Positions 1-61,964 of a DNA stretch of 61,964 bases are shown here, piece after piece; position 1 is the first letter of the stretch; each line of letters begins with the position of its first letter. The notes under the pieces are model-generated. The model was given only the letters and a program-made list of their open reading frames with translations, was not told where the DNA came from and made no database searches. The stretch is from a virus: IMG/VR virus record IMGVR_UViG_3300029944_000009. One strand, written 5' to 3'. Both the position numbers and the translations under genes were made by a program.

Positions 1-738
1 GCGCGAGCCTCACCGCTCCGGTGCTGGCCGAGGTGACCGGCTCCGTTGTCCTCAGGGAGGGCGCGAGCCTCACCGCTCCGGTGCTGGCCGAGGTGACCGG
101 CTCCGTTGACCTCAGGGAGGGCGCGAGCCTCACCGCTCCGGTGCTGGCCGAGGTGACCGGCTCCGTTGTCCTCAGGGAGGGCGCGAGCCTCACCGCTCCG
201 GTGCTGGCCGAGGTGACCGGCTCCGTTGACCTCAGCCAGGGCGCGAGCCTCACCGCTCCGGTGCTGGCCGAGGTGACCGGCTCCGTTGTCCTCAGGGAGG
301 GCGCGAGCCTCACCGCTCCGGTGCTGGCCGAGGTGACCGGCTCCGTTGTCCTCAGGGAGGGCGCGAGCCTCACCGCTCCGGTGCTGGCCGAGGTGACCGG
401 CTCCGTTGACCTCAGGGAGGGCGCCAGCCTCACCGCTCCGGTGCTGGCGAAGACCGGCTCCGTTGTCCTCAGCCGGGGCGCCAGCCTCACCGCTCCGGTG
501 CTGGCGAAGACCGGCTACGTTGTCCTCAGCCAGGGCGCCAGCCTCACCGCTCCGGTGCTGGCGAAGACCGGCTCCGTTGACCTCAGGGAGGGCGCCAGCC
601 TCACCGCTCCGGTGCTGGCCGAGGTGACCGGCTACGTTGACCTCAGCCAGGGCGCGAGCCTCACCGCTCCGGTGCTGGCGAAGACCGGCTCCGTTGACCT
701 CAGCCAGGGCGCGAGCCTCACCGCTCCGGTGCTGGCGA
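1..738 (+). repeat. Coding tandem repeat with 60-bp and 57-bp units, nearly identical at the nucleotide level
   Basis: Seven 60-bp units (1-420) are followed by mixed 57/60-bp units. Differences are confined to a few codons. Confidence 0.95.
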
Positions 739-1055
739 CAGTCAATGGAAAGCCCTTCAAGGTTCCGGTTCTCGAACATATCGATGCCAAGATTCTTGCC
801 GCGATCCAGAGCGGCGGCGGCAAACTTGAAATGGATGCTTGGCACACCTGCGGAACAACGCATTGCCGGGCAGGCTGGGCCATCCATCTCTGCGGCGACG
901 AGGGTTACGCCCTTGAGGCGATAACGAATTCCGAGACCGCCGGCACCCTCATTTATGCCGCTTCCCGGCCGGGTCTGCCTACCCCGAATTTCCGCGCCTC
1001 GAACAAAGATGCATGGGCTGATCTGCATGCCTGCGCAAATGCGAGTGTGCCGTGA
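1..1055 (+). CDS. 3' part of the tandem 19/20-aa repeat (solenoid/LRR-like) protein with a Cys-motif C-terminal domain. The 5' end runs off the window and the reading frame starts at nt 3.
   Basis: Track ORF 21..1055 stays open to the window edge. It holds 12 units of GASLTAPVLA(EVTG|KTG)(S|Y)V(V|D)L(RE|SQ|SR), then a unique tail of about 105 aa containing WHTCGTTHCRAGW. The same repeat gene opens at 61170 on the same strand. Confidence 0.8.
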   Translation, partial: ASLTAPVLAEVTGSVVLREGASLTAPVLAEVTGSVDLREGASLTAPVLAEVTGSVVLREGASLTAPVLAEVTGSVDLSQGASLTAPVLAEVTGSVVLREGASLTAPVLAEVTGSVVLREGASLTAPVLAEVTGSVDLREGASLTAPVLAKTGSVVLSRGASLTAPVLAKTGYVVLSQGASLTAPVLAKTGSVDLREGASLTAPVLAEVTGYVDLSQGASLTAPVLAKTGSVDLSQGASLTAPVLATVNGKPFKVPVLEHIDAKILAAIQSGGGKLEMDAWHTCGTTHCRAGWAIHLCGDEGYALEAITNSETAGTLIYAASRPGLPTPNFRASNKDAWADLHACANASVP

Positions 1056-1273
1056 TCTGGTTCATCACAACCTGCGGCAGTCTGCGCGGTCTCTGCGGGC
1101 TTGTCGCCGCAATCGTCATCTCCGCTGCTGCCGTCTCGACCATTGCGCGGCGCAGCCGCTATCACGGCCAGATCGTCTCGCATGGCAATAGCTTCGGCTG
1201 TTTCCTTACGGGTTTCGCAATCGTGACTTCGCCGGGCTGGGTTCCTGCGTTGGTTAAGGCGGTGGTGTCGTGA
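1052..1273 (+). CDS. Hypothetical small hydrophobic protein
   Basis: GTGA start/stop overlap with the upstream gene. Weak call because antisense ORFs also exist here. Confidence 0.3.
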   Translation: MIWFITTCGSLRGLCGLVAAIVISAAAVSTIARRSRYHGQIVSHGNSFGCFLTGFAIVTSPGWVPALVKAVVS

Positions 1274-1464
1274 GCGGTCAAGCGTATGCCATGTTCGAAC
1301 GTGACGTGCCGGAGCATCTCCGCGAAGACGCCATGACGGCAATGGCCGAAGCGACCCAGGGGTTCGGAAATCCCGATAACGCCCAACTTTGCTTTTCAGC
1401 CAGCGCATACCCACATGACGTGTTCCGTCTTAAAGGAGCACGTCATGCTTTCCCTTTTGATTAG
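1270..1464 (+). CDS. Hypothetical acidic protein
   Basis: GTGA overlap with the upstream ORF. The translation looks like a real protein (FERDVPEHLREDAMTAMAEA). Confidence 0.35.
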   Translation: MSGQAYAMFERDVPEHLREDAMTAMAEATQGFGNPDNAQLCFSASAYPHDVFRLKGARHAFPFD

Positions 1465-1642
1465 CCTGCTAATACTCTGCCTGATCGCCTACGTGGTGTA
1501 TTTCATCCTAGGCATGCTGCCGCTACCGCCGCCTATAAAGCAGGTCGTGATGATCATATTCGCGGTTATTGTGCTGATCTTCCTGCTCGATATGCTGCTC
1601 GGCGGGGGCGTCTCCAGCCTTGACTGGCGATTGCCGCGTTAG
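1445..1642 (+). CDS. Small membrane protein with two predicted TM helices
   Basis: ATG at 1445 is preceded by AAAGGAG with a 6-nt spacer. The sequence is hydrophobic (MLSLLISLLILCLIAYVVYFILG...). Confidence 0.55.
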   Translation: MLSLLISLLILCLIAYVVYFILGMLPLPPPIKQVVMIIFAVIVLIFLLDMLLGGGVSSLDWRLPR

Positions 1643-18526: not shown

Positions 18527-20995
18527 ATGGCTGGATTGAGCCCGAATATCCGACTGGTCGACAGCACCCCGCCGCCATCACCTCAGCAGGCCCGCGACGT
18601 GACAGTTGCCCAGAACGACGACCCGGTTAACGGTGAAATCCGCAATGGCAACGGCGATCTCCTCCGCATAGAGCATGATGACGGCTCCATCACCATCACC
18701 ACTGACGGCACGCCACTTGAGAAGGCAACCAAGACGGGGCCGGGCGGCTGGTGGGATAATCTCGTAGATGAAATAGACGCCATGGAGCTCACGCGCATGG
18801 CTGAAGAGATATTGCGCGGCATCCGCGACGACATCACCTCCCGGCAAGAGTGGATTGACGACCGCGCCAACGGCATGCGCTTGCTGGGCCTGAAGCTGGA
18901 CCTGCCGGGCCTCGGCGGTAGCGCGGACGGAGCCCCAGTGGAGGGCATTAGCCGGGTGCGCCACCCCCTGCTGCTCGAAGCGGTGCTCCGTTTTCAGGCC
19001 AACGCGAGGTCTGAACTGTTGCCTACGGACGGGCCAGTGAAGGTTCGCGACGACGGCAACGGCGACGACGTCAACCAGGACCGGCTAGCGGATTACCTCG
19101 AAAAAGACCTCAACCACTACCTAACCAGCACGGCATCGGAGTATTATCCCGACACAGACCGCATGTTGCTTATGCTCGGGTTTGGGGGCACCAGCTTCAA
19201 GAAGGTGCACCAATGCCCGTTGCGCAACCGGCCGGTGTCGGAGACCGTGGACGCCGAAGACTTGATCGTCAACAACAGCGCCACGGATTTGAAGAACGCC
19301 ACCCGCGTGACGCACCGCATTAGCTTGAAGCCAAGCACGGTGAAGCGCATGCAGATCCTCGGGGTTTACCGAGATATCCCGCTGCACACCCCAAACATGG
19401 CTCAGCTCGATGCCGTGCAGATCGAGCGCAAGGCGCAAGAGGGCATTTCGATCAACTCCATGAACCCGGAAGACCGCGACCGGGAGATTTACGAGTGCTA
19501 TTGTGAGCTGGATATCAAGGGTTACGAGCACGAGATGAAGGGTAAGCCCACCGGGCTAGAGATACCCTACCGCGTCACCATCGATGTATCATCGCGGCAG
19601 GTTTTATCTGTCGTGCGCAACTACGAGGAAGATACCAAAGAGCTACCCGAAGCGCGCACGACCTTCATCAAGTACACGTTTGTGCCGGGCTTTGGCTTCT
19701 ATGACATCGGCCTCCTGGCCATTCTGGGAAACACAACCAATGCTATTACAGCTGCTTGGCGGGAGCTTCTTGACGCTGGCATGTATTCTAATTTCCCTGG
19801 TTTCCTTATGGCGGATAGCGGATCTCGTCAAAACACGAACATCTTCCGTGTACCGCCGGGCGGTGGCGCTCCCGTCAAGACCAACGGAATGCCCATCCGG
19901 GACGCCATCATGCCCCTTCCGTATCAGCCGCCGCAACCAGCTCTTATGCAGCTTGTCAACGACATCGCCCAAACTGGCATGCGAATTGGCGGCACTAGCG
20001 AGCAAGCAGTGGGCGAGGGGCGGGCGGACGCGCCAGTAGGCACGACGCTGGCGATGATCGAGCAGGCCACCAAGGTCATGAATTCCGTGCACAAGCGGTT
20101 GCATGCATCTCAGGCCCAAGAGTTCCAGCTCTTGGCCAAAGTGTTCAAAGAGCACCCCAAGAGCTTCTGGCAGCAGAACCGCAAGCCGGCGTATAAATGG
20201 GATGAGCAAACCTTCCTCGACGCCCTCGAAGACGCGGATATCGTGCCGCAAGCTGACCCCAACACGGCCTCGCATGGGCAGCGCGTGATGAAGATCATGG
20301 CGCTGAAGCAACTGCAGGCGGCCCAGCCCTCGCTCTACGATCCGATCGCGATTGACCGCGCGGCCCTCGTCGCACTCGGCTTCAACAACCCCGATCAGTT
20401 CCTTGCACCACCCCAGGCCCAAGCCTCGCCGCCACCAGAGCTGCAGCAGATCCAGGCTCAGATCCAGCAAGGCAACATCGTGGCCGGGGCGCAGAAGACG
20501 GCGGCAGACGCCCGTATGCTCGATGCGCAGACTAAGCGCGCGGAAGCCCAGGCGAAGATACAAGGCGGCCTGGCGGGCGGCGAAGGCAAGAGCACCGGAC
20601 CGAGCTCGGCCGAGCTGGAGCTCAAGCAAGCCGATTTGAAGACCAAAGCCGCCGGCCTCGCGCTGCAGCACCAGAACACGGAGCAGGAGACTGCTTCGCG
20701 CACGGCGGACCGCGAGGCGGATCTGAAGATACAGCAAATGAAACTGGAAGCAGATACCCAGAACAAGCACGCGGACCGGCAGCATGAGGTGCTCATGGGC
20801 GCGCTCACCGCGCACAAAGAGAACACACAACAGGCGGCGGAGCTAAGCGAGCACGAGCAGGACAGGCGGGCGGATATCGCCAAGACACTGGCCGGGAAAG
20901 TGATGGATGGGCGCAACGCCCAGGCGAAAGCCGCCGCGACGCCAAAACTAAAAGCACCCGGGCCGGTGAAACCGAGAAAGGCGAAACTGGTATGA
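18527..20995 (+). CDS. Portal protein (putative) with a Q/A/K-rich C-terminal extension
   Basis: Position directly after terL, its size, and the AGGAG SD. No motif-level proof. Confidence 0.7.
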   Translation: MAGLSPNIRLVDSTPPPSPQQARDVTVAQNDDPVNGEIRNGNGDLLRIEHDDGSITITTDGTPLEKATKTGPGGWWDNLVDEIDAMELTRMAEEILRGIRDDITSRQEWIDDRANGMRLLGLKLDLPGLGGSADGAPVEGISRVRHPLLLEAVLRFQANARSELLPTDGPVKVRDDGNGDDVNQDRLADYLEKDLNHYLTSTASEYYPDTDRMLLMLGFGGTSFKKVHQCPLRNRPVSETVDAEDLIVNNSATDLKNATRVTHRISLKPSTVKRMQILGVYRDIPLHTPNMAQLDAVQIERKAQEGISINSMNPEDRDREIYECYCELDIKGYEHEMKGKPTGLEIPYRVTIDVSSRQVLSVVRNYEEDTKELPEARTTFIKYTFVPGFGFYDIGLLAILGNTTNAITAAWRELLDAGMYSNFPGFLMADSGSRQNTNIFRVPPGGGAPVKTNGMPIRDAIMPLPYQPPQPALMQLVNDIAQTGMRIGGTSEQAVGEGRADAPVGTTLAMIEQATKVMNSVHKRLHASQAQEFQLLAKVFKEHPKSFWQQNRKPAYKWDEQTFLDALEDADIVPQADPNTASHGQRVMKIMALKQLQAAQPSLYDPIAIDRAALVALGFNNPDQFLAPPQAQASPPPELQQIQAQIQQGNIVAGAQKTAADARMLDAQTKRAEAQAKIQGGLAGGEGKSTGPSSAELELKQADLKTKAAGLALQHQNTEQETASRTADREADLKIQQMKLEADTQNKHADRQHEVLMGALTAHKENTQQAAELSEHEQDRRADIAKTLAGKVMDGRNAQAKAAATPKLKAPGPVKPRKAKLV

Positions 20996-21141: not shown

Positions 21142-21392
21142 GCGGCGCGGAAATCCTCAAGCCGTTCGGGTCTTACCGCACGCCCGGTATCGACGAGAAC
21201 GTGGTCGAAACACTGGAAAACCTCTTAGAGCGAGCGGTATCCGGTGAGATTACCGGCGTAGCCGTGGCTTATATGACCGGGGGCAACCACGCCTGCTCCG
21301 AAGTGGCTTTCGGCAGCGCTGGCTACGCCGCGATGCTGGGGGCTACGGTAGCCATGCAGGCGACAATGCTTGAGGCGTGGAAAAACCTATGA
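21138..21392 (+). CDS. Hypothetical protein
   Basis: GTGA-coupled start inside track ORF 21054..21392. Confidence 0.45.
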   Translation: MSGAEILKPFGSYRTPGIDENVVETLENLLERAVSGEITGVAVAYMTGGNHACSEVAFGSAGYAAMLGATVAMQATMLEAWKNL

Positions 21393-23455
21393 ACGTCGCC
21401 GAACGCGCTTTGCACGCAGCCCGCCGTACGTACGCCGATGGCGGTGGCACAGATCCACGTGGAGCAAGCCAGCAACTCAGCCCTTCTGGCCTTTATAGCC
21501 AAGGTGCTGCGACCGCTGCTGCGTTGCCGCAGGCCAAGGGGCCGCCGCAGCAGATGCTGGGCATGCTGCAGAACCAGGGCGTTAAACCAGCCGAGCTGGA
21601 GAACGCCGGGTTGCCGGGAGCGCTTGGCGATCAACATGCGGTTACACGCGAGCAGCTCGCGGCTCATTTGCAAGGGGCGATGCCGGATATCCAAGAAGAG
21701 GTGCGCGGGTACAACCCAAGCGCCCCCGTGCAAGAGGTACCCGAGGACGCAGTAAGCAGCTGGGTAGAGAATAGGGCGCGCGAACGCGGCGGCCAGCACT
21801 TTGATATGATGGGGGGTGAGGAGCAACAGCACCACCGCCGCGCGGCGGGGCGCGAGTTCGACGAAAACTTTCAGGAAGACCCCGAGTTCTCGCATCAATT
21901 TACCGGCGGCCCAAAGCCGACTAAGTACGAAGAGTACACGCTGCCCGGAGGCGAGAACTACCGCGAACTGCTCTTGCATACAAAACCAGACCGCTTCGGG
22001 GAGCAATTAGCACATCGCTCCGGCCATTGGGATACGCCAAACGTCCTTGCGCATTTGCGTTTGTCAGACCGCACGGACCCCGAAGGCAAGAAGGTACTGC
22101 ATATCGAGGAGCTGCAGAGCGATTGGGGCCAAGAGGGCCGGAAGAAGGGCTTTGCGGAACCGGGAAAGCCCGGCGTGCCCAAAGGCCCGTATGTCGGATC
22201 CACGCAAGGTTGGACTGAGCTAGGGTTAAAGCGCGCCCTCGTTGAAGCGGCGCGCGGCGGCTACGATAAGATGGTCTGGACACCTGGGCAAGAACAAGCA
22301 GATAGATATGATCTGAGCAAGAAAATAAGCCACATTGTCCACCTCAACAACGGCGACGGCACGTACTACGCAAGCGCTGTGACCCACGGCGTCGATGGTG
22401 AGCCGGTTCATCTCGGCAATTACCTGACGCCGGAGCAGCTGGAAAACCACGTCGGCAAGGACGTCGCGCACAAGATCGTAGCGGGCCAAGGCGAAGACCT
22501 CGGCCGTGGCCTCAAGAAGCTCGGCGCCCACGATCTAAGCGTTGGCGGCGAGGGCATGAAGTCCTATTACGACAAGGTGCTGCCCAATACCCTTAGCAAG
22601 ATCACAAAGAAGCTAGACCCAACTGTGCGGCCGGAGATGAAAGAGCTATCGGCCGGCGAAGCAACGCCCAATGCGTTTCAGACCTGGGCAAGACAGAACG
22701 GCGATATGCGGCGGTCTGATCAGCTCGGCCAAGCTTGGCATCTCAAGGGCCGGGATGATCCCGCTGTCACGCAGTTCCTCGATCAGCACAAAGGCCGTGA
22801 GCTGCCGGGCATCGATATAACACCCACGATGCGAGCCAAGATCCTGCGCGGCTTGCCCGCGTTCAAACGGGGCGGCGCGATCGAGCCCACCGAAGCGCAG
22901 AAAGCCGCCGGCAATTACCAGAAGGAGCATATTTCCTTCCAGGGCTTGCCAATCAGCATTGAGACGAAAAAAGGTGCAGAACGCTCTGGCGTTGACGCTG
23001 AAGGCAAGCGCTGGCGCTGCGTGCTGCCGTACGATTATGGCTATATCAAGCGCACCGAGGGCGCCGATGGCGAGCACGTTGACGTGTGTATCGGCCCTCA
23101 CAAAGATAGTCAGAGGGTCTTTGTCGTCAACCAGAACGACCACGAGACGGGGGAGTTTGATGAGCATAAAATCATGCTGGGCTACAACACGCGGGATCAG
23201 GCTGAAGCGGCATACAAAGCGGGTTTCTCGGACGGCAAAGGCCATTTGCGCATGGGCCATCTCGTTGTAGCCACTCTTGAAGATTTGAAAGACTGGCTCA
23301 AACACGACGATACGACGCGCGAGAACCCACGTCAGAAACACTGGCAACACGATACGAATGCAGCTAAAAGCGACTTCGTAGACGCTGCCCTTCGCGTAAC
23401 AAACCACGGCGCGCATCCGCCCGCAGCCGTTTCTCTCGCCCGGCGGATGAAGTAA
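21389..23455 (+). CDS. Large head-associated protein with a C-terminal pyrophosphatase-like beta-barrel segment (tentative)
   Basis: ATGA-coupled ATG at 21389. IEELQSDWGQEGRKKG motif. The C-terminal YDYGYIKRTEGADGEHVDVCIGP...VFVVNQ...FDEHKIMLGY resembles PPase-like domains seen in phage head modules. Confidence 0.6.
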   Translation: MNVAERALHAARRTYADGGGTDPRGASQQLSPSGLYSQGAATAAALPQAKGPPQQMLGMLQNQGVKPAELENAGLPGALGDQHAVTREQLAAHLQGAMPDIQEEVRGYNPSAPVQEVPEDAVSSWVENRARERGGQHFDMMGGEEQQHHRRAAGREFDENFQEDPEFSHQFTGGPKPTKYEEYTLPGGENYRELLLHTKPDRFGEQLAHRSGHWDTPNVLAHLRLSDRTDPEGKKVLHIEELQSDWGQEGRKKGFAEPGKPGVPKGPYVGSTQGWTELGLKRALVEAARGGYDKMVWTPGQEQADRYDLSKKISHIVHLNNGDGTYYASAVTHGVDGEPVHLGNYLTPEQLENHVGKDVAHKIVAGQGEDLGRGLKKLGAHDLSVGGEGMKSYYDKVLPNTLSKITKKLDPTVRPEMKELSAGEATPNAFQTWARQNGDMRRSDQLGQAWHLKGRDDPAVTQFLDQHKGRELPGIDITPTMRAKILRGLPAFKRGGAIEPTEAQKAAGNYQKEHISFQGLPISIETKKGAERSGVDAEGKRWRCVLPYDYGYIKRTEGADGEHVDVCIGPHKDSQRVFVVNQNDHETGEFDEHKIMLGYNTRDQAEAAYKAGFSDGKGHLRMGHLVVATLEDLKDWLKHDDTTRENPRQKHWQHDTNAAKSDFVDAALRVTNHGAHPPAAVSLARRMK

Positions 23456-52470: not shown

Positions 52471-53817
52471 ATGACAACGAATAGAAATCTATCGACTCCC
52501 GCAAACGGCGCCGATGTCGGGACGTGGGATGCCAACCTTAACGGGAACTTCATTGTCATAGATGCATCCTTAGGTACCGCAACCACGTTAAGCCAAACAG
52601 CAGCGGGCACGTACCCCCTTACCACGGTGATATCCGGCTCCGGGCTAAGCGCAGTGGCGCAATATCAGGCGGCTATTTTCGTCGTTACCGGAACGCTTAC
52701 CGGCAACGTGGTCTACCAAATCCCAGCGGGTGTTGGTGGTGAATGGACGATCAATGCGTTGGCGCTTCAGCCCGCGGGTTTCACCTGCACTTTCACGTCG
52801 GCAACAGGCGGCGGGACGTCCGTGTCTCTGGCGGGTGGCTCAACAGCCTATATCTATTGCGATGGCACGAACGTCCGCAGCCAAACGGTTCCAGGAAACT
52901 ACAACGCTATCGTGACCAATGCAGGCACCAGCGGGGCGTTGGCCGCTGCGCAATCTGGCGCGTTCATAGAGCTAACGAGTGCGACTTCGGGCAGCTTCGC
53001 GCTGCCGTCGCCAGCAACTGGCGCGCCGGTCACGTTTACCTTCTGGACGACCCAAGCGTCTCAGACTCTCACCGCCTCGGCCGGTAGCATAACGGGGCCG
53101 GGCCTTGCTGCGGCTTCCTCGTTAGTGGTCCCTGCGAATGCCATAGTTTCGCTGACTTCGGACGGGGCCAACTGGATCGCCGCGTTTTCTGTCGCCCCGT
53201 TAGCGGGGCTGACCACCGCGCCCATGCCGCTCATCACAAACGCCAATTCCGCGCCTTTAGGCTGGAGCCAGTACAACCCGGCGACGACCAATACACCGGC
53301 GGCTTCCACTACCGGAACTCTCAGCACAACCAGCACGACCGGGAGCGCGACGCCGGCCTCTGGCAACGTCATAACCCAAACGGCGTACCACGTATCTGGC
53401 GATAATTCATATTTTAGAACGAACCCGAATAACGGCGGCTGGTCTGCTTGGCAGCAAGTAGTGTCCCTTACGGCTGGGGCGAACGCGGTCCCGGTAGGGG
53501 CGTCCGCTAGCGTGGTTCCCGGGACCGTAGCCACCGCTACGACGCCCGCTTTCACCGCACCTAGCAGCGGCGCGTTAATGATTGCTGTGACGTTTTCCTA
53601 CGCTAACATTCTTCCACTACCGACGACTACTACCACTACATCCTTGGGCGGCCTTGTGCAGCTTACCGGCCCCTTGCCATTAAACACGCAAGTTTTCTGG
53701 TATTATTTGCCCATGGCGACCGGCCAAAACACAACAATAACCGGGCAGCTCGTGAGTACGGGCGGAAGCGTCAACATGTCAGTTGGTGTTGCGGCTTTCT
53801 TCCTGCCGTTAGCCTAA
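52471..53817 (+). CDS. Tail fibre protein
   Basis: Last gene of the late arm. Thr/Ser/Ala/Gly-rich. Shares a domain with 24770..25918. Confidence 0.65.
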   Translation: MTTNRNLSTPANGADVGTWDANLNGNFIVIDASLGTATTLSQTAAGTYPLTTVISGSGLSAVAQYQAAIFVVTGTLTGNVVYQIPAGVGGEWTINALALQPAGFTCTFTSATGGGTSVSLAGGSTAYIYCDGTNVRSQTVPGNYNAIVTNAGTSGALAAAQSGAFIELTSATSGSFALPSPATGAPVTFTFWTTQASQTLTASAGSITGPGLAAASSLVVPANAIVSLTSDGANWIAAFSVAPLAGLTTAPMPLITNANSAPLGWSQYNPATTNTPAASTTGTLSTTSTTGSATPASGNVITQTAYHVSGDNSYFRTNPNNGGWSAWQQVVSLTAGANAVPVGASASVVPGTVATATTPAFTAPSSGALMIAVTFSYANILPLPTTTTTTSLGGLVQLTGPLPLNTQVFWYYLPMATGQNTTITGQLVSTGGSVNMSVGVAAFFLPLA

Positions 53818-56087
53818 GACTTTTGCCGCTTCATGGCGGCAAGCAAGATGTCCTGGACTGATCTCTTGCTGCCTAGGCGGTCCAGGACCATCTCGTCTAC
53901 CGTGTCGGCCGCAACTATATAGTGGACGAATACAGGCCGCTTGAGACCCGCTTGGGCTTGCCGCATGGGGCCAATACGCTCGATAATCTGCATGTGCTCT
54001 TCCAAACTCCAGTTTAGCCCGAAAAAAGCTAGAATGTTGCCGCCGGCAGCCAGGTTCAGGCCATGGCCAGCGGAGTTATGGGATATAAATACTTCCCCAA
54101 AGTTATTACGTATTAGAAACCGGTGGCGGGGGCCGCAATCTACAAGGTCGTAGACTGGCGAGACTTGCGGCGGCGGGGATACGTCGATTTCTCGTAGTCG
54201 GCTACCGCTTCGTCTCCGGTCATGCCCCTGTTTAGCCTTGGTAGAAGCGCGCCCTTTGTCCCCCCAGACCTCCGGCAAAATTCGGCGAGGTGCATAGTCT
54301 CGCCCTTGTACGTGATTACCCGGTTGTTTGTTTTGTTCGCTTGTTGCTCTGCGTTCGTTGCCCAGCGGCAATTTTCCTTCGAATACCCCAGACTGTTGTC
54401 TATTCGCTCTATCGTCAAATTTGGCGCGTATGTACTCCACATGTCGTTGTAAAAGTTTTTGAAATCTACCCAAGACCTGGACAGTCCTTTTCCTGCTCCC
54501 CCGTACCTCCAGTAATTCCGGCAAGTGGACGACAGCGCCCGCTCCTTCATCCCTTTCCATATCGACCAAAAACGAGTGTTGGTCATGTTGTGGAACGTAT
54601 CCTGGACGCACGTCTTGCAGTGCTTGTCCCCGCGTTTGTTGGCGCGTAACAGGTTCTGTAGCGCCATCTCCTGCTCCGCGCCGCAGTGGCAACATTTCGC
54701 TAAGGTATATCTCATCTCCCTCATAGAAGAATTGAATCGATTCGGTAGCATTTTCACCATCCCGAACATTTTTGGCCTCTACCCATTCCCCGTTTATAAG
54801 AAGTTTATGCTCCGGCGTCATAGTGATGCCAAATCGCGAGATCACGTTTCGAACACCTGAAAAGATACAGCCCGCGTGGTTAACAAAAGCCACGCCATCG
54901 TGCACCCGTTCTTGTTTTTCGACATCAACGAGGCTAACCCACCCCCGGTGTTCAGTCAACACTTCAGTCTCGGGGTGCAAGCATGCGGGGTGGGCAAATA
55001 ATAGCGGGATTTCGCCCGCGTTCCATCGCTCTATGGTCTTTGGGTCCGCGTCGAGATGCTTGCCTTTCGGAAACGCTTCTTTCAACCGCGCCAGATCATG
55101 TTTGAAGTTATACGCAACAAGAACCGGCACGCCGTTCGCTTCTTCGACGATGCTCTCTAGCGCATCGAGCTTGGCGTTATGCAGGTCTGTAAAGACTCTA
55201 GCGGCTTCATCTGTGTACAGGCCCCCATTGCAAATTTGGAGGCATTTATTCGTGCGTACGGCGGCGTTCGCTGCGCCTATAGCGATATCTTCTGCCAGTT
55301 CCACGAACATTTCCGCCTGCATCTCGTCGTAGATCGCGCGGGCATCTGGTGGTAGTTCAATCTTCACGATATTGTGAATAGGCGCGTCAACAGGTAAGCC
55401 GTCCACCGTCAGGCATAGGTCTTTGACCTTCTCGTGTATTTCGCCTTCAGAATGCGCGAGCGGCACAAGGCTGTAGCCATCGTAACCGGTGCGGAACCAT
55501 CTGTCGCTGAAGGCTGAGTAGGAGTGACCGAGCCGGGCACCCCGGTCCAAGAACCACAGTTGGCCCCACAGGTCTTTGAGGCCATTCGGCGAGGGCGTAC
55601 CAGTTAGGCCGATGAAGCGGGGGGTTGGATGCGCAAACTTCGCCAGAGCCCGGGCGCGCATGCTACCTTGCCGCAGGCGAAAAGATTTCAGCCGTGTGAA
55701 CTCGTCGGCTATAATTGTTTTAAACGGCCATGTGCCGCCAAGGGCGCCGAGTAGCCATTTGAGGTTTTCGTAATTCATACAGTAAATGTCAGCTGGTCTC
55801 TGGAGTGCTTGCGCGCGCTCCTTCGTGCTGCCAGTGATGACCGATACCCGCAGATGTTTTAGGTGCGGCCACTTCTGCACTTCCGGCCCCCATACGGTGC
55901 GAGCAACGCGCAGAGGCGCCAATACCAACGCGGGGAACACGTCTTCAACGAGGGCGAGGCTATCCAGCGCGGTAAGGGTCGAGACCGTCTTCCCGGACCC
56001 CATCGCGGCCCACAGCGCGCAGCGCGGGTTTGCTTGGATAAAATCCACCATGTCTTGCTGGTAGTCGTGCGGGATAAATTTTGTCAC
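53814..56087 (-). CDS. SNF2-family helicase interrupted by an intein
   Basis: Motif I AAMGSGKT, motif II IIADEF, motif III LTGTPSPNG, motif V split as LLFAHPA|...|SAGHGLNL. GTG start. Confidence 0.9.
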   Translation of the reverse strand: MTKFIPHDYQQDMVDFIQANPRCALWAAMGSGKTVSTLTALDSLALVEDVFPALVLAPLRVARTVWGPEVQKWPHLKHLRVSVITGSTKERAQALQRPADIYCMNYENLKWLLGALGGTWPFKTIIADEFTRLKSFRLRQGSMRARALAKFAHPTPRFIGLTGTPSPNGLKDLWGQLWFLDRGARLGHSYSAFSDRWFRTGYDGYSLVPLAHSEGEIHEKVKDLCLTVDGLPVDAPIHNIVKIELPPDARAIYDEMQAEMFVELAEDIAIGAANAAVRTNKCLQICNGGLYTDEAARVFTDLHNAKLDALESIVEEANGVPVLVAYNFKHDLARLKEAFPKGKHLDADPKTIERWNAGEIPLLFAHPACLHPETEVLTEHRGWVSLVDVEKQERVHDGVAFVNHAGCIFSGVRNVISRFGITMTPEHKLLINGEWVEAKNVRDGENATESIQFFYEGDEIYLSEMLPLRRGAGDGATEPVTRQQTRGQALQDVRPGYVPQHDQHSFLVDMERDEGAGAVVHLPELLEVRGSRKRTVQVLGRFQKLLQRHVEYIRAKFDDRANRQQSGVFEGKLPLGNERRATSEQNKQPGNHVQGRDYAPRRILPEVWGDKGRASTKAKQGHDRRRSGSRLREIDVSPPPQVSPVYDLVDCGPRHRFLIRNNFGEVFISHNSAGHGLNLAAGGNILAFFGLNWSLEEHMQIIERIGPMRQAQAGLKRPVFVHYIVAADTVDEMVLDRLGSKRSVQDILLAAMKRQKS
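54075..54983 (-). mobile_element. Intein of 303 codons inserted in helicase motif V
   Basis: CLHPETEVLT (block A), TMTPEHKLL (block B), VYDLVDCGPRHRFLIRNNFGEVFISHN followed by the +1 Ser (blocks F/G). Confidence 0.85.
54140..54769 (-). CDS. HNH-family homing endonuclease nested inside the helicase intein in a different reading frame
   Basis: RFWSIWKGMKERALSSTCRNYWRYGGAGKGL...LTIERIDNSLGYSKENCRWAT...ITYKGETMHLAEFCR. The offset from the host start is 1318 nt, which is not a multiple of 3. Confidence 0.8.
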   Translation of the reverse strand: MFGMVKMLPNRFNSSMREMRYTLAKCCHCGAEQEMALQNLLRANKRGDKHCKTCVQDTFHNMTNTRFWSIWKGMKERALSSTCRNYWRYGGAGKGLSRSWVDFKNFYNDMWSTYAPNLTIERIDNSLGYSKENCRWATNAEQQANKTNNRVITYKGETMHLAEFCRRSGGTKGALLPRLNRGMTGDEAVADYEKSTYPRRRKSRQSTTL

Positions 56088-58789: not shown

Positions 58790-58917
58790 TACTTTGGCTT
58801 CCTTCCGAAAATTGGTTGATCCCGCGAGCCGAGCTTCCGGTATGCGGTCGAGGGGCTGACGCCGATCTGCTCGGCCGCCTGGTTGCCGGTCAATTCGGGG
58901 TTAGATGACCTGCACAT
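58789..58917 (-). CDS. 42-aa HTH protein, resolvase/Hin-type HTH-like
   Basis: ATG at 58917 after GGAGGGGGG. Translation: MCRSSNPELTGNQAAEQIGVSPSTAYRKLGSRDQPIFGRKPK. Confidence 0.4.
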   Translation of the reverse strand: MCRSSNPELTGNQAAEQIGVSPSTAYRKLGSRDQPIFGRKPK

Positions 58918-59452
58918 GAACCCCCCTCCGTTCGATAAAATCAGCCATCGATGGCAGTTCCTTGGCGGCGATGATCAGGGTGTCACCAGTCCGCAGCAAC
59001 TTCTTTGTGAAAAGCTTGTCGTCGAAAATGTGCCCAGGATGTATGACCATGCGCTCCATAATAGCGCGGGTTCGCTTTGACCCTTTTATCGGTAAAAATG
59101 CTACCACAGCAGGGCTTATAAGCTGAGGAAAATCTGGCCTTGGTTTTGCGATGCGTTCATTCTCACCATCAACCGCCGCAATCACGTTTTCGATTGCCGC
59201 AATGGCACGGTGAGCAGAGACAGCGAATGTCTCGGTTGTTCCATAAGCTGGCGCGCGGTGTGGTTTTAACGCTCGATGTACCAGCCGTTCTATGATTTGG
59301 GCGTCTCCGTGCGGGCGTTCCCATGATTGAATCAAACCAATTTCCATATCACGGAAGCGCAACGCCCGCAGACGAGCAAGAGGGCTAACAGAAAATCCTA
59401 TTTTGTGGAGGCGTTCTCCATATCGCATGACGTAGACAAAATTAGCGGGCAT
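58901..59452 (-). CDS. T5orf172 (GIY-YIG-like) domain protein whose C-terminal segment resembles part of a serine-recombinase catalytic domain
   Basis: N-terminus VYVMRYGERLHKIGFSVSPLARLRAL. C-terminus IFDDKLFTKKLLRTGDTLIIAAKELPSMADFIERRGV. Confidence 0.6.
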   Translation of the reverse strand: MPANFVYVMRYGERLHKIGFSVSPLARLRALRFRDMEIGLIQSWERPHGDAQIIERLVHRALKPHRAPAYGTTETFAVSAHRAIAAIENVIAAVDGENERIAKPRPDFPQLISPAVVAFLPIKGSKRTRAIMERMVIHPGHIFDDKLFTKKLLRTGDTLIIAAKELPSMADFIERRGVHVQVI

Positions 59453-59600
59453 TTTTGAGCGCCTTCCGTAAGGCGATTTTTACCCATTGCGTTACGGTGC
59501 GCTCGTCCGCTTTGGCGGCTCGCTCGATGGCGGCTTTCATGTCTGCATCTACGCGAATGCCTAGGTGCGCGTCGGGGACGGCTTGTTCTGGGTTTTCCAT
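59442..59600 (-). CDS. Ribbon-helix-helix (CopG/Arc-like) regulator, first gene of the second leftward arm
   Basis: HLGIRVDADMKAAIERAAKADERTVTQWVKIALRKAL. Alternative upstream starts are at 59618 and 59678. Confidence 0.6.
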   Translation of the reverse strand: MENPEQAVPDAHLGIRVDADMKAAIERAAKADERTVTQWVKIALRKALKNAR

Positions 59601-59642
59601 GCACCGAGCATAGCGCATTTGTTTAACCTCGTCAAATACCGT

Positions 59643-59671
59643 TTGACAGATTGCAAGCGAAGGATTATAAA
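59643..59671 (+). promoter_or_regulatory. Near-consensus sigma70-type promoter
   Basis: TTGACA (59643-48), 17 nt, TATAAA (59666-71), upstream of the C5 MTase gene. Confidence 0.55.
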
Positions 59672-59719
59672 GGGCCATCGCCGGGCTGTTCCGGTATTCA
59701 CAAATTGCCCGGAGCCTGC

Positions 59720-60358
59720 GTGAAACCCAAAGCCTTAGATTTATTTTGTTGTGCTGGCGGCGCTGCGATGGGTTTGCATCGTGCTGGCTTCGAGGTTGTC
59801 GGTGTGGATATTGAGCACCAGAAGAATTATCCGTTTGAGTTTCACCAAGCCGACGCGCTCGGACATTCGCTTGAAGGCTTTGACTTTATATGGGCTTCGC
59901 CGCCGTGCCAGGCTTATTCTAACGCCCAGCGTATCCGCTCAAATGACCACCCCGATTTAGTGGGGCCGATCCGTGAACGGCTCAAAGCCTCCGGTGTTCC
60001 CTGGGCTATTGAGAATGTCGTCGGCGCGCCCCTCATAAATCCGATTGAGCTTTGCGGGTCGATGTTCCCCGGATTGCGCACATACCGCCATCGACTGTTC
60101 GAGTGTTCTTTCCCTATATCCGCGCCGGTACACCCAGAGCACGAGGCTCCTCTCACCAAGATGGGGCGCCCCGTAGCGGCAGAAAACTTCATGCACGTCG
60201 TAGGCAATTTCTCTGGCGTGCAGAAGGCTCGCGAAGCCATGGGGATTGATTGGATGGTGCGCGACGAGTTGCGCGAGGCAATCCCGCCGGCATATTCAGA
60301 GTACATCGGCCGCGCCGCCCTGGCGGTCATAAACGCCAAGCGGGCGGTTGCCGCTTAA
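59720..60358 (+). CDS. dcm: Compact DNA cytosine-5 methyltransferase
   Basis: GTG at 59720, 5 nt after GGAG and downstream of the promoter. Motifs DLFCCAGGAAMG (I), SPPCQAYS (IV), ENV (VI), RHRLF (VIII), AIPPAYSEYIG (X). Confidence 0.85.
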   Translation: MKPKALDLFCCAGGAAMGLHRAGFEVVGVDIEHQKNYPFEFHQADALGHSLEGFDFIWASPPCQAYSNAQRIRSNDHPDLVGPIRERLKASGVPWAIENVVGAPLINPIELCGSMFPGLRTYRHRLFECSFPISAPVHPEHEAPLTKMGRPVAAENFMHVVGNFSGVQKAREAMGIDWMVRDELREAIPPAYSEYIGRAALAVINAKRAVAA

Positions 60359-60397: not shown

Positions 60398-60861
60398 ATG
60401 GGTTGCGATATTCACAGCTACGCAGAACGGAAAGATGAGAGCGGCAAGTACGTCGATCTTGATTTTTCGCCATTCGATAACCGTTCATACGGCACATTCG
60501 GCTTCCTGGCCGACGTAAGGAATTATTCGGCCGTTCCACCGATTTCCCAGCCGCGCGGCTTGCCGGACGATGTTTCGAGCGAGGTGCCGGAACGAGACGA
60601 AACCTGGGGAAGTGACGGCCATTCGCACTCGTGGCTTTCCGTGGCCGAGCTGGTCTCTTTCGATTATGATTCGGCCATGGAGGATCGGCGCCATACCGTG
60701 CAGACCGGGCCGCGGTCATGGAATGGAGGCGCGACTTGTGAAGTTGGTCAGGGCAAAAAAAAACCACCTTCCGCAAGTTCCTTGGCGATGGATTTTTCGC
60801 TGACCTCAAGAAACTACAGGACATGGGCGCCGAGCGCGTCGTGTTCTGGTTCGAGAGCTGA
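60398..60861 (+). CDS. Conserved-looking hypothetical protein (MGCDIHSYAE...) that needs a -1 frame change at an A9 run (60755-60763) to reach its plausible C-terminus
   Basis: The 0 frame after the A-run is S/R/P/C-rich junk running to 61009. The -1 frame reads TTFRKFLGDGFFADLKKLQDMGAERVVFWFES and stops at 60859-61. Confidence 0.55.
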
Positions 60862-60864
60862 GCC

Positions 60865-60877
60865 CCACCTAACCCCC
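60865..60877 (+). repeat. 13-bp direct repeat CCACCTAACCCCC, right copy
   Basis: Lies 3 nt after the -1-frame stop codon. Confidence 0.8.
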
Positions 60878-60998
60878 GAAAGGCCAGCGCCGTGCTTAAG
60901 CGGTACAAATCAAAATCTTCTGTTCTACGCGCGATTAAGCGCCATGACTCAAAAAACAGAGTGCTCTTTAACGAGATTATCGATGGTGAGCATTACTG

Positions 60999-61145
60999 GT
61001 GATCGCTGATTACGCGGAACGGATCGGCTGGCAGATCAATGCCATCGCTGAATACGACCATCCCACGCTCAATGCCGCTGTTGCAAACCTTCGTGCTGCC
61101 CTCAGCGAAGTCGCGGCTGTCGTGAAGGCTGGGCCGGAAGTCTGA
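60999..61145 (+). CDS. Hypothetical 48-aa protein
   Basis: GTG start 8 nt after GGTGAG. Translation: (M)IADYAERIGWQINAIAEYDHPTLNAAVANLRAALSEVAAVVKAGPEV. An antisense ORF competes for the same region. Confidence 0.3.
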   Translation: MIADYAERIGWQINAIAEYDHPTLNAAVANLRAALSEVAAVVKAGPEV

Positions 61146-61169
61146 TTTTTCAAAACCAAGGAACTCGAA

Positions 61170-61964
61170 ATGATCCATCACGGCAATCTCACGATCACCA
61201 AAGAAAATGCCAAGCTGTACGCGGGCATCATCGAAGTAACTGGTGATCTCAGAATCAGCCAGGGCGCGAGCCTCACCGCTCCGGTGCTGGCGAAGACCGG
61301 CTCCGTTGTCCTCAGCCAGGGCGCGAGCCTCACCGCTCCCGTGCTGGCCGAGGTGACCGGCTCCGTTGACCTCGGCCAGGGCGCGAGCCTCACCGCTCCG
61401 GTGCTGGCGAAGACCGGCTCCGTTGTCCTCAGGGAGGGCGCGAGCCTCACCGCTCCGGTGCTGGCCGAGGTGACCGGCTACGTTGTCCTCAGGGAGGGCG
61501 CGAGCCTCACCGCTCCGGTGCTGGCGAAGACCGGCTACGTTGTCCTCAGCCGGGGCGCCAGCCTCACCGCTCCGGTGCTGGCCGAGGTGACCGGCTACGT
61601 TGTCCTCAGGGAGGGCGCCAGCCTCACCGCTCCGGTGCTGGCCGAGGTGACCGGCTACGTTGTCCTCAGGGAGGGCGCCAGCCTCACCGCTCCGGTGCTG
61701 GCGAAGACCGGCTACGTTGTCCTCAGGGAGGGCGCCAGCCTCACCGCTCCGGTGCTGGCGAAGACCGGCTCCGTTGTCCTCAGCCAGGGCGCGAGCCTCA
61801 CCGCTCCGGTGCTGGCCGAGGTGACCGGCTCCGTTGTCCTCAGCCAGGGCGCGAGCCTCACCGCTCCGGTGCTGGCCGAGGTGACCGGCTCCGTTGTCCT
61901 CAGGGAGGGCGCGAGCCTCACCGCTCCGGTGCTGGCCGAGGTGACCGGCTCCGTTGTCCTCAGG
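61170..61964 (+). CDS. 5' part of the tandem 19/20-aa repeat protein, open to the right window edge
   Basis: ATG at 61170 after AAGGAAC. MIHHGNLTITKENAKLYAGIIEVTGDLRISQ is followed by 12 repeat units. The ORF is missing from the track because no stop occurs before the edge. Confidence 0.8.
   Translation, partial: MIHHGNLTITKENAKLYAGIIEVTGDLRISQGASLTAPVLAKTGSVVLSQGASLTAPVLAEVTGSVDLGQGASLTAPVLAKTGSVVLREGASLTAPVLAEVTGYVVLREGASLTAPVLAKTGYVVLSRGASLTAPVLAEVTGYVVLREGASLTAPVLAEVTGYVVLREGASLTAPVLAKTGYVVLREGASLTAPVLAKTGSVVLSQGASLTAPVLAEVTGSVVLSQGASLTAPVLAEVTGSVVLREGASLTAPVLAEVTGSVVLR
61255..61964 (+). repeat. Coding tandem repeat with 57/60-bp units, the same family as 1..738
   Basis: Near-identical units run to the last base of the window. 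Confidence 0.95.

What the first reader, a model, noticed from the sequence alone, without database searches (positions are those of the whole stretch)
61170..61964. Hyper-regular 19/20-aa solenoid repeat protein with variation limited to four positions
Every unit reads GASLTAPVLA-[EVTG or KTG]-[S or Y]-V-[V or D]-L-[RE, SQ, SR or GQ], and everything else is invariant even at the nucleotide level. The L..aP.L..VtG.V.L..gas spacing looks like a short LRR or receptor-L-domain type beta-solenoid. On that fold the four variable sites would sit on one exposed face. Near-identical 57/60-bp units should recombine easily, so the gene could change unit number and order, giving a combinatorial binding surface. 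It sits in an early-type arm driven by the promoter at 59643, next to methyltransferase genes, which would fit a host-takeover or anti-defence role. I do not recognise this repeat as a described family.
Basis: partly seen in the sequence, partly recalled or inferred. Interest (0 to 1): 0.7.

Follow-up and report, generated by a model that had tools for sequence, protein, structure and literature searches.

The report
Length-variable beta-solenoid repeat gene in a phage
A phage accessory gene encodes a rod of at least 23 almost identical 19- or 20-residue coils fused to a conserved Cys/His domain of unknown function. The number of coils ranges from 0 to at least 23 among otherwise identical phage genomes, so this is a real, fast-changing repeat protein from an undescribed family.

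Summary
The ORF starts at 61170 and runs off the window end. It resumes at window position 1 and stops at 1055. The two window ends overlap by 56 nt.

The gene encodes:
- a 31-aa N-terminal cap;
- at least 23 units of 19 or 20 aa;
- a roughly 105-aa helical C-terminal domain (C-domain) with an invariant WHxCxTTHCxxGW motif (phrog_31265, function unknown).

AlphaFold2 models the array as a beta-solenoid (pLDDT 94). The variable residues fall at positions i, i+2 and i+4 of one strand plus the next turn. No Pfam, NCBIfam, PDB or BFVD entry matches significantly.

The repeat is a rare, uncurated family: 358 clusters among 1.84 billion representative proteins. It is fused to several different partner domains and shows the same hypervariable stripe family-wide. 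Most C-domain homologues carry pentapeptide repeats where this protein has its array.

Independent assemblies of the same phage, with flanks 99.96-100% identical, carry 0, 5, 9, 12 or at least 23 units. Each allele is explained by one or two in-register deletions. The predicted recombinational variation is therefore supported.

The function is not established. The context is an early or replication module, so an accessory, host-takeover or anti-defence role is inferred. I rate it a new variant of a known kind, of moderate to high interest.

The parts
59643..59671 (+). Sigma-70-like promoter candidate (TTGACA, 17 nt, TATAAA) upstream of the + strand gene cluster
   Evidence: Read directly from the sequence. 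The scan did not report it because it requires T at position 6 of the -10 hexamer. Unverified.
59720..60358 (+). C5-cytosine DNA methyltransferase, first gene of the + strand cluster
   Evidence: Pfam PF00145 at E=1.3e-6. Called as a 212-aa gene in the identical contigs L001-L004.
60398..61009 (+). Gene of unknown function (phrog_10141) with an A9 run at 60755-60763
60999..61145 (+). 48-aa ORF immediately upstream of the repeat gene
   Evidence: The same protein is found on contigs in at least 45 blocks of the collection.
61158..61162 (+). Shine-Dalgarno-like AAGGA, 7 nt before the ATG
   Evidence: Sequence.
61170..61262 (+). Start codon and 31-aa N-terminal cap (MIHHGNLTITKENAKLYAGIIEVTGDLRISQ), a degenerate first coil
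   Evidence: Translation. The GNLxItxeN...EVxGxLxI cap is conserved in other family members. Modelled with pLDDT 97-98.
61263..61964 (+). Units 1-12 of the 57/60-nt array; unit 12 is cut by the window end
1..737 (+). Continuation of the array: unit 12 (overlap copy) to unit 23, plus the terminal half unit GASLTAPVLA
738..1055 (+). C-terminal all-alpha Cys/His domain (TVNGKPF...WHTCGTTHCRAGW...ACANASVP) and stop codon
   Evidence: phrog_31265 at E=6e-16. 223 homologues were found. Invariant residues are D, M, W-H, C, T, H-C, G-W and P. pLDDT is above 90.
1052..1273 (+). 73-aa hydrophobic ORF whose GTG start overlaps the repeat gene's stop codon (GTGA), suggesting translational coupling
1270..1642 (+). 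Two further small ORFs of the same cluster (64 aa, and 65 aa that is strongly hydrophobic)

Best explanation
**What it is.** This is one protein-coding gene that wraps around the contig ends (61170-61964, then 1-1055). It encodes an N-capped beta-solenoid of at least 23 near-identical coils of 19 or 20 residues. A conserved helical Cys/His C-terminal domain of about 105 aa (phrog_31265) follows.

**The coil.** It belongs to a rare, uncurated repeat family with consensus G-A-[ST]-[LF]-T-A-P-[VA]-L-A-[EV|K]-[TSA]-G-x-V-x-[VL]-x-x. The hydrophobic positions build the core. Three alternate outward-facing positions of one strand, plus the following turn, are hypervariable and rich in Tyr, Ser, Asp and Arg.

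**How it changes.** Because the units are about 90% identical at DNA level and 57 or 60 nt long, in-register unequal recombination and gene conversion add, delete and reshuffle coils without breaking the frame. Within one phage population this yields alleles of 0, 5, 9, 12 and at least 23 coils.

**Proposed function (inferred, not shown).** The protein is a cytoplasmic accessory protein of the early or replication module. The C-domain is the constant effector or docking module. The solenoid is an exchangeable, length- and surface-variable binding or spacing module, and most homologues carry pentapeptide repeats in its place. The most likely role is host takeover or counter-defence through binding of a host protein.
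For: **Gene structure**
- Gene structure and in-frame junction.
- It codes for protein rather than being a DNA-only repeat. Unit lengths are multiples of 3. All alleles stay in frame. The motif is conserved at protein level in distant relatives, including a Flavobacterium prophage.

**Fold**
- Solenoid models: pLDDT 94.3 with pTM 0.88, and pLDDT 83.3.
- Strands fall at SLT and xTGxVxL.

**Hypervariable stripe, family-wide**
- In 26 proteins (128 units), positions 15, 17 and 19 vary within 81-96% of proteins.
- Positions 7, 9, 12, 16 and 18 vary within 0-8%.

**Copy-number alleles**
- Flanks are 99.96-100% identical over about 10 kb on each side.
- Alleles come from six different samples.
- Each allele equals the window array with one or two in-register deletions and carries 72-125 junction 141-mers absent from the window.
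- All pairs of dimorphic sites show all four combinations.

**Modularity**
- The C-domain is fused mostly to pentapeptide repeats, also to another 20-aa repeat, and also occurs alone.
- The same repeat is fused to DUF5758, a PcfJ-like domain, an N-terminal MCDFHS domain and others.

**Context of the C-domain gene**
- In the window it sits in a replication module, among genes for a DNA methylase, an SNF2 helicase and DNA polymerase A.
- In a Flavobacterium prophage it sits in the early region, with an S24-type repressor, AAA_24, DUF1351 and SNF2.
- In another element it lies between YqaJ and RuvC.
- In Ralstonia podophage RsoP1IDN it lies in the early region upstream of primase and helicase.
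Against: - No functional annotation exists for any part: PHROG lists it as unknown, and there is no hit in Pfam, NCBIfam, PADLOC or PDB.
- There are no expression data, and the promoter is only a consensus match.
- The 146-aa allele with no full coil exists in two samples. A long array is therefore not obviously required, and its length could be neutral.
- The alleles come from short-read metagenome consensus contigs. Within-sample heterogeneity and the true maximum length are unknown. Most contigs of this phage break at the array (19 and 18 'similar places').
- The 'one exposed face' conclusion rests on predicted secondary structure and residue alternation, not on coordinates.
Confidence: 0.6

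Rival explanations
1. Neutral protein minisatellite. The solenoid tolerates any number of coils, and unit gain and loss is replication or recombination slippage with no adaptive value. The functional part is the cap, one coil and the C-domain.
For: - The 146-aa allele (cap, half unit and C-domain) is assembled in two samples.
- All alleles use unit types already present in the window array; none has new point variants.
- The C-domain also occurs alone as a roughly 93-aa protein.
Against: - The same three or four positions are hypervariable in about 26 distant family members, while the scaffold positions are conserved. This argues for selection on the exposed stripe.
- The residues used at those positions (Y, S, D, R, H) are typical of binding sites.
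- Both the 19- and the 20-residue coil forms are kept in 88% of family proteins.
- Most assemblies break at the array, which suggests that long arrays predominate.
Confidence: 0.25
2. Assembly artefact. The array, or the differences in unit number, are produced by short-read assemblers collapsing or over-walking a tandem repeat.
For: - Both window ends lie in the array.
- The related contigs are MEGAHIT k141 contigs, and most of them break at the array.
- Short reads cannot span 1.4 kb of repeats.
Against: - The window has no repeated 140-mer, so its order is determined by 141-mers.
- Every shorter allele contains 72-125 junction-spanning 141-mers that do not exist in the window sequence. Reads carrying those junctions must exist.
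- The alleles come from six different samples, and their flanks are identical.
- Related proteins elsewhere show the same pattern. One MCDFHS-domain protein occurs with 3, 4 and 8 units.
Confidence: 0.08
3. DNA mimic in the manner of the pentapeptide-repeat proteins Qnr and MfpA. The solenoid imitates B-DNA and titrates gyrase or another DNA-binding host enzyme, for example a restriction enzyme.
For: - Most C-domain homologues carry pentapeptide repeats in the same position.
- The coil size of 19-20 residues equals four pentapeptides.
- The array is mildly acidic, with net charge -10 and pI 4.8.
- The gene sits next to a DNA methyltransferase.
Against: - There is no Pfam pentapeptide hit even at E of 1 or below.
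- The 19-residue coils break the five-residue periodicity.
- A charge of -10 over 461 residues is far weaker than in known DNA mimics.
- Foldseek matches to MfpA and Qnr are insignificant, at E of 2 or worse.
Confidence: 0.1
4. A DNA-level element, such as iterons or a replication origin, that happens to be open in one frame; or a surface or virion adhesin similar to the 19-residue repeats of AIDA-I and Ag43.
For: - The array lies between replication genes.
- There are weak sub-threshold NCBIfam matches to AIDA-I and Ag43, at E of about 1e-3 and 16 bits against a cut-off of 1200.
Against: - The motif is conserved at protein level in relatives with different codon usage, and it is fused in frame to conserved domains.
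- No signal peptide or autotransporter domain is present.
- The gene lies outside the virion module (portal, beta-helix and tail genes at about 15.9-53.8 kb).
Confidence: 0.03

Closest known systems
Pentapeptide-repeat proteins (Pfam PF00805; Qnr, MfpA, AlbG) fused to the same C-terminal domain, for example the 'putative pentapeptide repeat protein' gp4 of Ralstonia phage RsoP1IDN
   Same: - Same architecture: an N-terminal beta-solenoid followed by the WHxCxTTHCRAGW domain, which is 36-65% identical.
- The genes are small, cytoplasmic and phage-borne, and they lie in early or replication regions.
- One coil is about 20 residues.
   Different: - The repeat here is not A(D/N)LXX and gives no PF00805 hit.
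- Coils of 19 and 20 residues are mixed.
- One long strand carries a hypervariable stripe.
- The units are far more regular and vary in copy number.
Leucine-rich repeats, including the short bacterial 20-22-residue types and the FNIP/IP22 repeats of giant viruses (PDB 7zal), and the variable lymphocyte receptors of jawless fish
   Same: - Short solenoid units with conserved aliphatic core positions and variable x positions on one beta-strand face.
- Diversification by shuffling repeat cassettes, as in variable lymphocyte receptors (from established knowledge).
- The best Foldseek probability is for 7zal.
   Different: - There is no LxxLxLxxN signature and no LRR Pfam hit.
- The Foldseek match is not significant, at E=0.1 and TM 0.39.
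- Curvature and a concave binding face were not shown.
19-residue beta-helix repeats of AIDA-I and Ag43 autotransporters; bactofilin and IBP-type three-sided beta-helices
   Same: A coil length of about 18-20 residues with two or three short strands per coil. There are weak echoes in NCBIfam and Foldseek.
   Different: All scores fall far below the thresholds. There is no secretion signal or translocator, and the context is cytoplasmic and phage-borne.
Protein-coding variable-number tandem repeats (contingency loci) and hyper-regular code-like repeats such as TALE repeats
   Same: - Near-identical DNA units, with variation confined to a few residues per unit.
- Unit number changes by recombination while the frame is kept.
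   Different: - The fold, unit length and organism differ.
- There is no evidence that one unit reads one element of a polymer.

Membership tests
Pentapeptide repeat family (PF00805) | Tandem A(D/N)LXX pentapeptides with strict five-residue periodicity, detectable by the Pfam models | tested here: not met
   No PF00805, PF13576 or PF13599 hit at E of 1 or below for the 597-aa protein, whereas homologue P0003 scores E=2.6e-35. The 19-residue units break the periodicity.
Pentapeptide repeat family (PF00805) | Right-handed quadrilateral beta-helix (Rfr fold) | tested here: inconclusive
   Foldseek matches to MfpA and EfsQnr have E of 2-4 and TM of 0.2 or below. The model has two or three strands per coil.
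Leucine-rich repeat | LxxLxLxx(N/C)xL segment, and detection by LRR profile models | tested here: not met
   No LRR family appears among the Pfam hits at E of 1 or below. In the unit, VxLxxGAxL carries one extra residue and has no Asn or Cys ladder (sequence).
Leucine-rich repeat | Curved solenoid that superposes on solved LRR structures | tested here: inconclusive
   Best matches are 7zal (FNIP LRR) at E=0.1, probability 0.77 and TM 0.39, and TLR5 at E=0.12. None reaches E of 1e-3 or better.
Receptor L domain | Structural similarity to the L domains of the insulin receptor or EGFR | tested here: not met
   Insulin receptor and EGFR hits have E of 0.8-1.3 and TM of about 0.2.
phrog_31265 / WHxCxTTHCRAGW C-terminal domain family | Profile match and the invariant residues D...M..WH.C.T.HC..GW...P | tested here: met
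   phrog_31265 at E=6.4e-16. There are 223 homologues, the best non-self at 59-65% identity. All invariant columns are present.
19/20-residue GA[ST][LF]TAPxLA-(EV|K)xG-xVxVxx repeat family (uncurated, defined here) | Unit consensus, EV/K length dimorphism, GNLxI...EVxG N-cap, and hypervariable positions 15, 17 and 19 | tested here: met
   There are 358 clusters at E of 1e-3 or below, and 131 at 1e-10 or below.
Diversity-generating retroelement target | A nearby reverse transcriptase and template repeat, with variation at adenine-templated sites only | tested here: not met
   Substitutions include G/C exchanges (AGG GAG versus AGC CAG) and a 3-nt indel. No reverse transcriptase was found among the ten large ORFs scanned or among the Pfam-annotated genes of L001. 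Not every small ORF was scanned.
Protein-coding variable-number tandem repeat (contingency-type locus) | Copy number differs among otherwise near-identical genomes while the frame is preserved | tested here: met
   0, 5, 9, 12 and at least 23 units in flanks that are 99.96-100% identical.

The most novel reading that the evidence does not exclude
The array is a recombination-diversified intracellular recognition surface, a phage counterpart of cassette-shuffled LRR receptors. Each coil contributes a three- or four-residue 'word' drawn from Y/S, V/D and RE/SQ/SR/GQ, together with a choice of 19 or 20 residues that sets the register. The phage population keeps many lengths and orders so that it can track a variable host target, such as a defence protein or a repetitive polymer. 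The Cys/His C-domain then acts on that target. The wider repeat family, with its many partner domains, would then be a general, previously unrecognised targeting module of phage accessory proteins, interchangeable with pentapeptide repeats.
Probability: 0.2. Interest if true: 0.8.

Novelty: new variant of a known kind. Interest (0 to 1): 0.58.

Why it matters
If confirmed, three things follow.

- **A new repeat family.** It would add an undescribed beta-solenoid family, with no Pfam, NCBIfam or PDB relative, to the catalogue of repeat folds. Its idealised, capped, high-confidence repeat could also be useful as a design scaffold.
- **A new source of phage variation.** Phage accessory genes would be shown to diversify through protein-coding tandem arrays that change from 0 to more than 23 units within one otherwise clonal population. 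This differs from point mutation, diversity-generating retroelements and module exchange. Short-read assemblies systematically break or collapse at such loci.
- **A handle on a large uncharacterised group.** The widespread but uncharacterised 'pentapeptide repeat protein' genes of phage early regions would be linked through their shared Cys/His domain. The domain and the solenoid can be tested separately.

Tried and rejected
**Family and structure searches that gave nothing usable**
- The Pfam hits for the full protein are sums of many weak repeat matches, most with no stretch significant on its own: ChlamPMP_M, Bflower_3, Ice_binding, SH3_4 and a phage N-terminal domain. I treated them as repeat artefacts.
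- NCBIfam and PADLOC returned nothing above threshold.
- PDB sequence searches found only pentapeptide-repeat chains, through the pentapeptide rows of alignment A1. With the C-domain alone there was no hit at all, even at E of 10 or below.
- Foldseek against PDB (two models) and BFVD (one model) found nothing at E of 1e-3 or below.

**Searches for the phage or the repeat elsewhere**
- An exact DNA search for the N-cap in IMG/VR found nothing.
- tblastn of the cap plus four units against 50,697 GenBank phage records gave no match. BLAST's low-complexity filter may contribute to this.
With a single protein it returned one locus, L006.

**Ideas tested and dropped**
- I tested whether the upstream neighbour (MGCDIHSY...) is related to the MCDFHS N-terminal domain that is fused to the repeat in other proteins. 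BLASTP gave E=0.16 over 17 residues, so this is not supported.
- Literature searches found no description of the repeat, the C-domain or DUF5758 in this context.
- A diversity-generating retroelement was considered and rejected on the substitution pattern and the absence of a reverse transcriptase.
Full report
**1. What is in the sequence**

An ATG at 61170, preceded by an AAGGA motif, opens a frame that stays open to the last base of the window. Tandem Repeats Finder reports a 60-nt period, 12.0 copies and 92% matches at 61261-61964. It reports a second block of 12.5 copies and 94% matches at 1-736.

The first 56 bases of the window are identical to the last 56. Removing the overlap joins the two blocks in frame and gives a 597-aa protein that stops at 1053-1055. 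The finding therefore describes the 5' half of one gene. That gene has three parts:
- a 31-aa N-terminal cap;
- 23 full units of 19 or 20 aa plus a terminal half unit;
- a C-terminal domain of about 105 aa.

Forty-six of 60 nucleotide columns never vary. The variable columns are:
- two synonymous dimorphisms;
- the A-EVTG / A-KTG indel;
- S/Y and V/D;
- RE/SQ/SR/GQ.

Both contig ends lie inside the array, and the 56-nt overlap only reflects the unit period. Twenty-three units is therefore a lower bound. The window holds no repeated 140-mer, and its longest internal exact repeat is 127 nt. The assembled order is what a k=141 de Bruijn graph can resolve.

**2. It encodes a protein, and the protein is a solenoid**

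Several observations show that the array is coding:
- Unit lengths of 57 and 60 nt are multiples of three.
- The array is fused in frame to a conserved domain.
- The motif is conserved at protein level in distant relatives.

AlphaFold2 was run on the cap plus 12 units, with an alignment of repeat-family proteins. It gave mean pLDDT 94.3 and pTM 0.88. Each unit has a short strand (SLT) and a long strand (x-T-G-x-V-x-L). A second model covered five units plus the C-domain and used an alignment of C-domain homologues. It also gave a solenoid, with pLDDT 70-87 in the repeats, and an all-alpha C-domain with pLDDT above 90.

In the long strand, the conserved V and L alternate with the variable residues. 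The variable residues (S/Y, V/D, R/S/G) therefore point to the same side, away from the core. Q/E/R sits in the next turn. This supports the 'one exposed face' idea.

**3. Comparison with known folds and families**

- The Pfam hits for the whole protein are additive repeat noise.
- NCBIfam and PADLOC give nothing above threshold.
- Foldseek finds no PDB or BFVD structure at E of 1e-3 or below. The weak matches are assorted beta-solenoids:
  - ice-binding proteins, bactofilin, MfpA and autotransporters;
  - the FNIP-type LRR 7zal, at E=0.1 and TM 0.39;
  - receptor L domains, at E of about 0.8.
- A profile of the C-domain alone finds no PDB sequence, even at E of 10 or below.

LRR or L-domain membership is therefore not shown. 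Pentapeptide-repeat membership is excluded at sequence level.

**4. The C-terminal domain**

The domain matches phrog_31265, whose function is unknown, at E=6e-16. It has 223 homologues in the 5.8-billion-protein collection.

Most homologues are proteins of 150-270 aa with pentapeptide repeats in place of the array. One has a different LRR-like 20-aa repeat (P0018). Some are the domain alone, at about 93 aa.

The invariant residues are D, M, W-H, C, T, H-C, G-W and P. The His/Cys cluster lies in a lower-confidence loop just before a helix. This fits either a metal site or a thiol active site. Both readings are inference.

Among cultured phages, the domain occurs in Ralstonia podophages, where it is annotated 'putative pentapeptide repeat protein'. 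In RsoP1IDN it lies at about 4 kb, upstream of primase and helicase.

**5. The repeat is a small, uncurated family**

A word-indexed search found 36 proteins. An exhaustive phmmer search of 1.84 billion representatives found 358 at E of 1e-3 or below, 131 at 1e-10 or below, and 12 at 1e-30 or below.

The same unit, including the EV/K length dimorphism, is fused to several partner domains:
- DUF5758;
- a PcfJ-like domain;
- an N-terminal MCDFHS domain;
- large multidomain proteins;
- a variant of the C-domain, in a Flavobacterium prophage.

Across 26 proteins with three or more units (128 units), positions 15, 17 and 19 vary within 81-96% of proteins. Core positions 7, 9, 12, 16 and 18 vary within 0-8%. 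Tyr, Ser, Asp and Arg dominate the variable sites, and 19- and 20-residue coils are used about equally.

That argues for selection on the exposed stripe. No member was found in 50,697 GenBank phage records.

**6. Unit number and order do vary**

The same phage occurs in at least 45 blocks of ENA MEGAHIT assemblies. Its flanks are 99.96-100% identical to the window over about 10 kb on each side.

| Locus | Sample | Array allele |
|---|---|---|
| L001 | ERZ27249079 | 146 aa, no full unit |
| L002 | ERZ27250279 | 146 aa, no full unit |
| L003 | ERZ27249319 | 242 aa; the five C-proximal units (window 19-23), the first a 1/19 recombinant |
| L004 | ERZ27250093 | Units 1-3, then a 4/18 recombinant unit (type EVTGSVDLRE), then 19-23 |
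| L008 | ERZ27249356 | 378 aa, 12 units |
| L009 | ERZ27248651 | Partial array with a different internal order |
| Window | not known | At least 23 units |

Each allele equals the window array with one or two in-register deletions. Each contains 72-125 junction-spanning 141-mers that are absent from the window, so reads carrying those junctions must exist. Most other contigs of this phage end at the array.

All pairs of dimorphic sites show all four combinations, so exchange also occurs inside units. A second family member shows the same behaviour. One MCDFHS-domain protein occurs with 3, 4 and 8 units.

The caveat is that these are consensus contigs from short reads.

**7. Context**

The window is a complete or nearly complete phage genome of about 62 kb:
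- It has an SU10-type portal, a beta-helix tail protein and a large tail-region protein carrying a Peptidase_S74 chaperone domain.
- Its replication genes are DNA polymerase A, a GapR homologue, an Enc34-type ssDNA-binding protein, a PD-(D/E)XK nuclease, a PriCT_2/AAA_25 primase-helicase and an SNF2 helicase.
- The closest cultured relatives by DNA polymerase are Caulobacter phages RW, KcrB, RLK and GB2A, at 57% identity.

The repeat gene lies in a short + strand cluster. The cluster holds the C5 methyltransferase, two small genes, the repeat gene and three small, partly hydrophobic ORFs. It sits between minus-strand replication operons. A TTGACA-17-TATAAA match at 59643 precedes the cluster, but it is unverified.

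In a Flavobacterium prophage and in another element, the homologous genes also sit in early or recombination regions.

**8. Interpretation**

*Shown:* the gene structure, the coding nature of the array, the predicted solenoid, the family-wide hypervariable stripe, the modular exchange with pentapeptide repeats, and the copy-number alleles.

*Inferred:*
- The solenoid is a binding or spacing module.
- The C-domain is the constant effector.
- The role is host takeover or counter-defence.

The array is only mildly acidic, with net charge -10 over 461 residues. A Qnr-like DNA-mimic mechanism is therefore not favoured. The main rival is a neutral, well-tolerated protein minisatellite. The 146-aa allele shows that a long array is not obligatory.

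**9. Verdict**

This is a real feature and an undescribed repeat family. The copy-number variation is striking and is supported by independent assemblies, within the limits of short-read consensus contigs. The general principles behind it are known: solenoid repeats, variable-number tandem repeats and domain shuffling. The function remains unknown. I rate it a new variant of a known kind, with interest about 0.58.

Noticed in passing
window 60755-60763 (inside ORF 60398-61009): A run of nine A's sits inside this ORF. After it, the -1 frame gives a clean, plausible C-terminus (TTFRKFLGDGFFADLKKLQDMGAERVVFWFES, stop at 60859-60861). The zero frame instead runs on for 80 low-quality residues into the next gene. 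The same 203-aa ORF is called in independent Illumina/MEGAHIT contigs, so this is not a read error. It is a candidate for programmed -1 frameshifting or transcriptional slippage.
   Followed up: partly
window 53814-56087 (- strand): The SNF2-type helicase ORF (757 aa) carries a central insert that begins CLHPETEVLT and ends ...VFISHN followed by S. By eye this looks like a mini-intein. Pfam finds only SNF2, DEAD and ResIII domains and no Hint domain. The gene called at the equivalent position in contig L001 is 745 aa (the difference was not examined).
   Followed up: partly
window 1052-1642 (+ strand): Three small ORFs follow the repeat gene, of 73, 64 and 65 aa. The first overlaps the repeat gene's stop codon (GTGA). 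The first and third are strongly hydrophobic and look like membrane proteins.
   Followed up: no
window 21377-23455 (+ strand): A 692-aa ORF downstream of the SU10-type portal gene (18527-20995) has a C-terminal PF18823 'InPase' domain at E=1.3e-48. This may be an enzyme domain on an internal or ejected virion protein.
   Followed up: no
window 58901-59452 (- strand) and 59442-59678 (- strand): A T5orf172/MUG113 (GIY-YIG-related) protein and a ribbon-helix-helix (CopG/TacA-like) protein are transcribed divergently from the methyltransferase and repeat gene cluster.
   Followed up: no
window ends (1-56 and 61909-61964); contigs behind L001-L009: The phage genome assembles as contigs of 60,467 to 61,964 bp in many ENA samples. 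Most of the contigs read break at this array (19 and 18 'similar places'). A 'direct terminal repeat' or 'circular' call based on the 56-nt overlap would be an artefact of the repeat.
   Followed up: yes
L006 3680-4600 (IMGVR_UViG_3300020576_003484); proteins P0129 and P0138: A second gene family, with an N-terminal MCDFHS domain plus the same repeat, shows 8, 4 and 3 near-identical units attached to almost identical N-domains in different metagenomes. Copy-number variation is therefore not peculiar to this phage.
   Followed up: partly
protein P0152 (1180 aa): A large protein has about 30 more divergent units of the same repeat. They lie between an N-terminal region and a C-terminal region containing an HEYAH (HExxH-like) motif. 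The repeat is therefore also used in big multidomain proteins.
   Followed up: no
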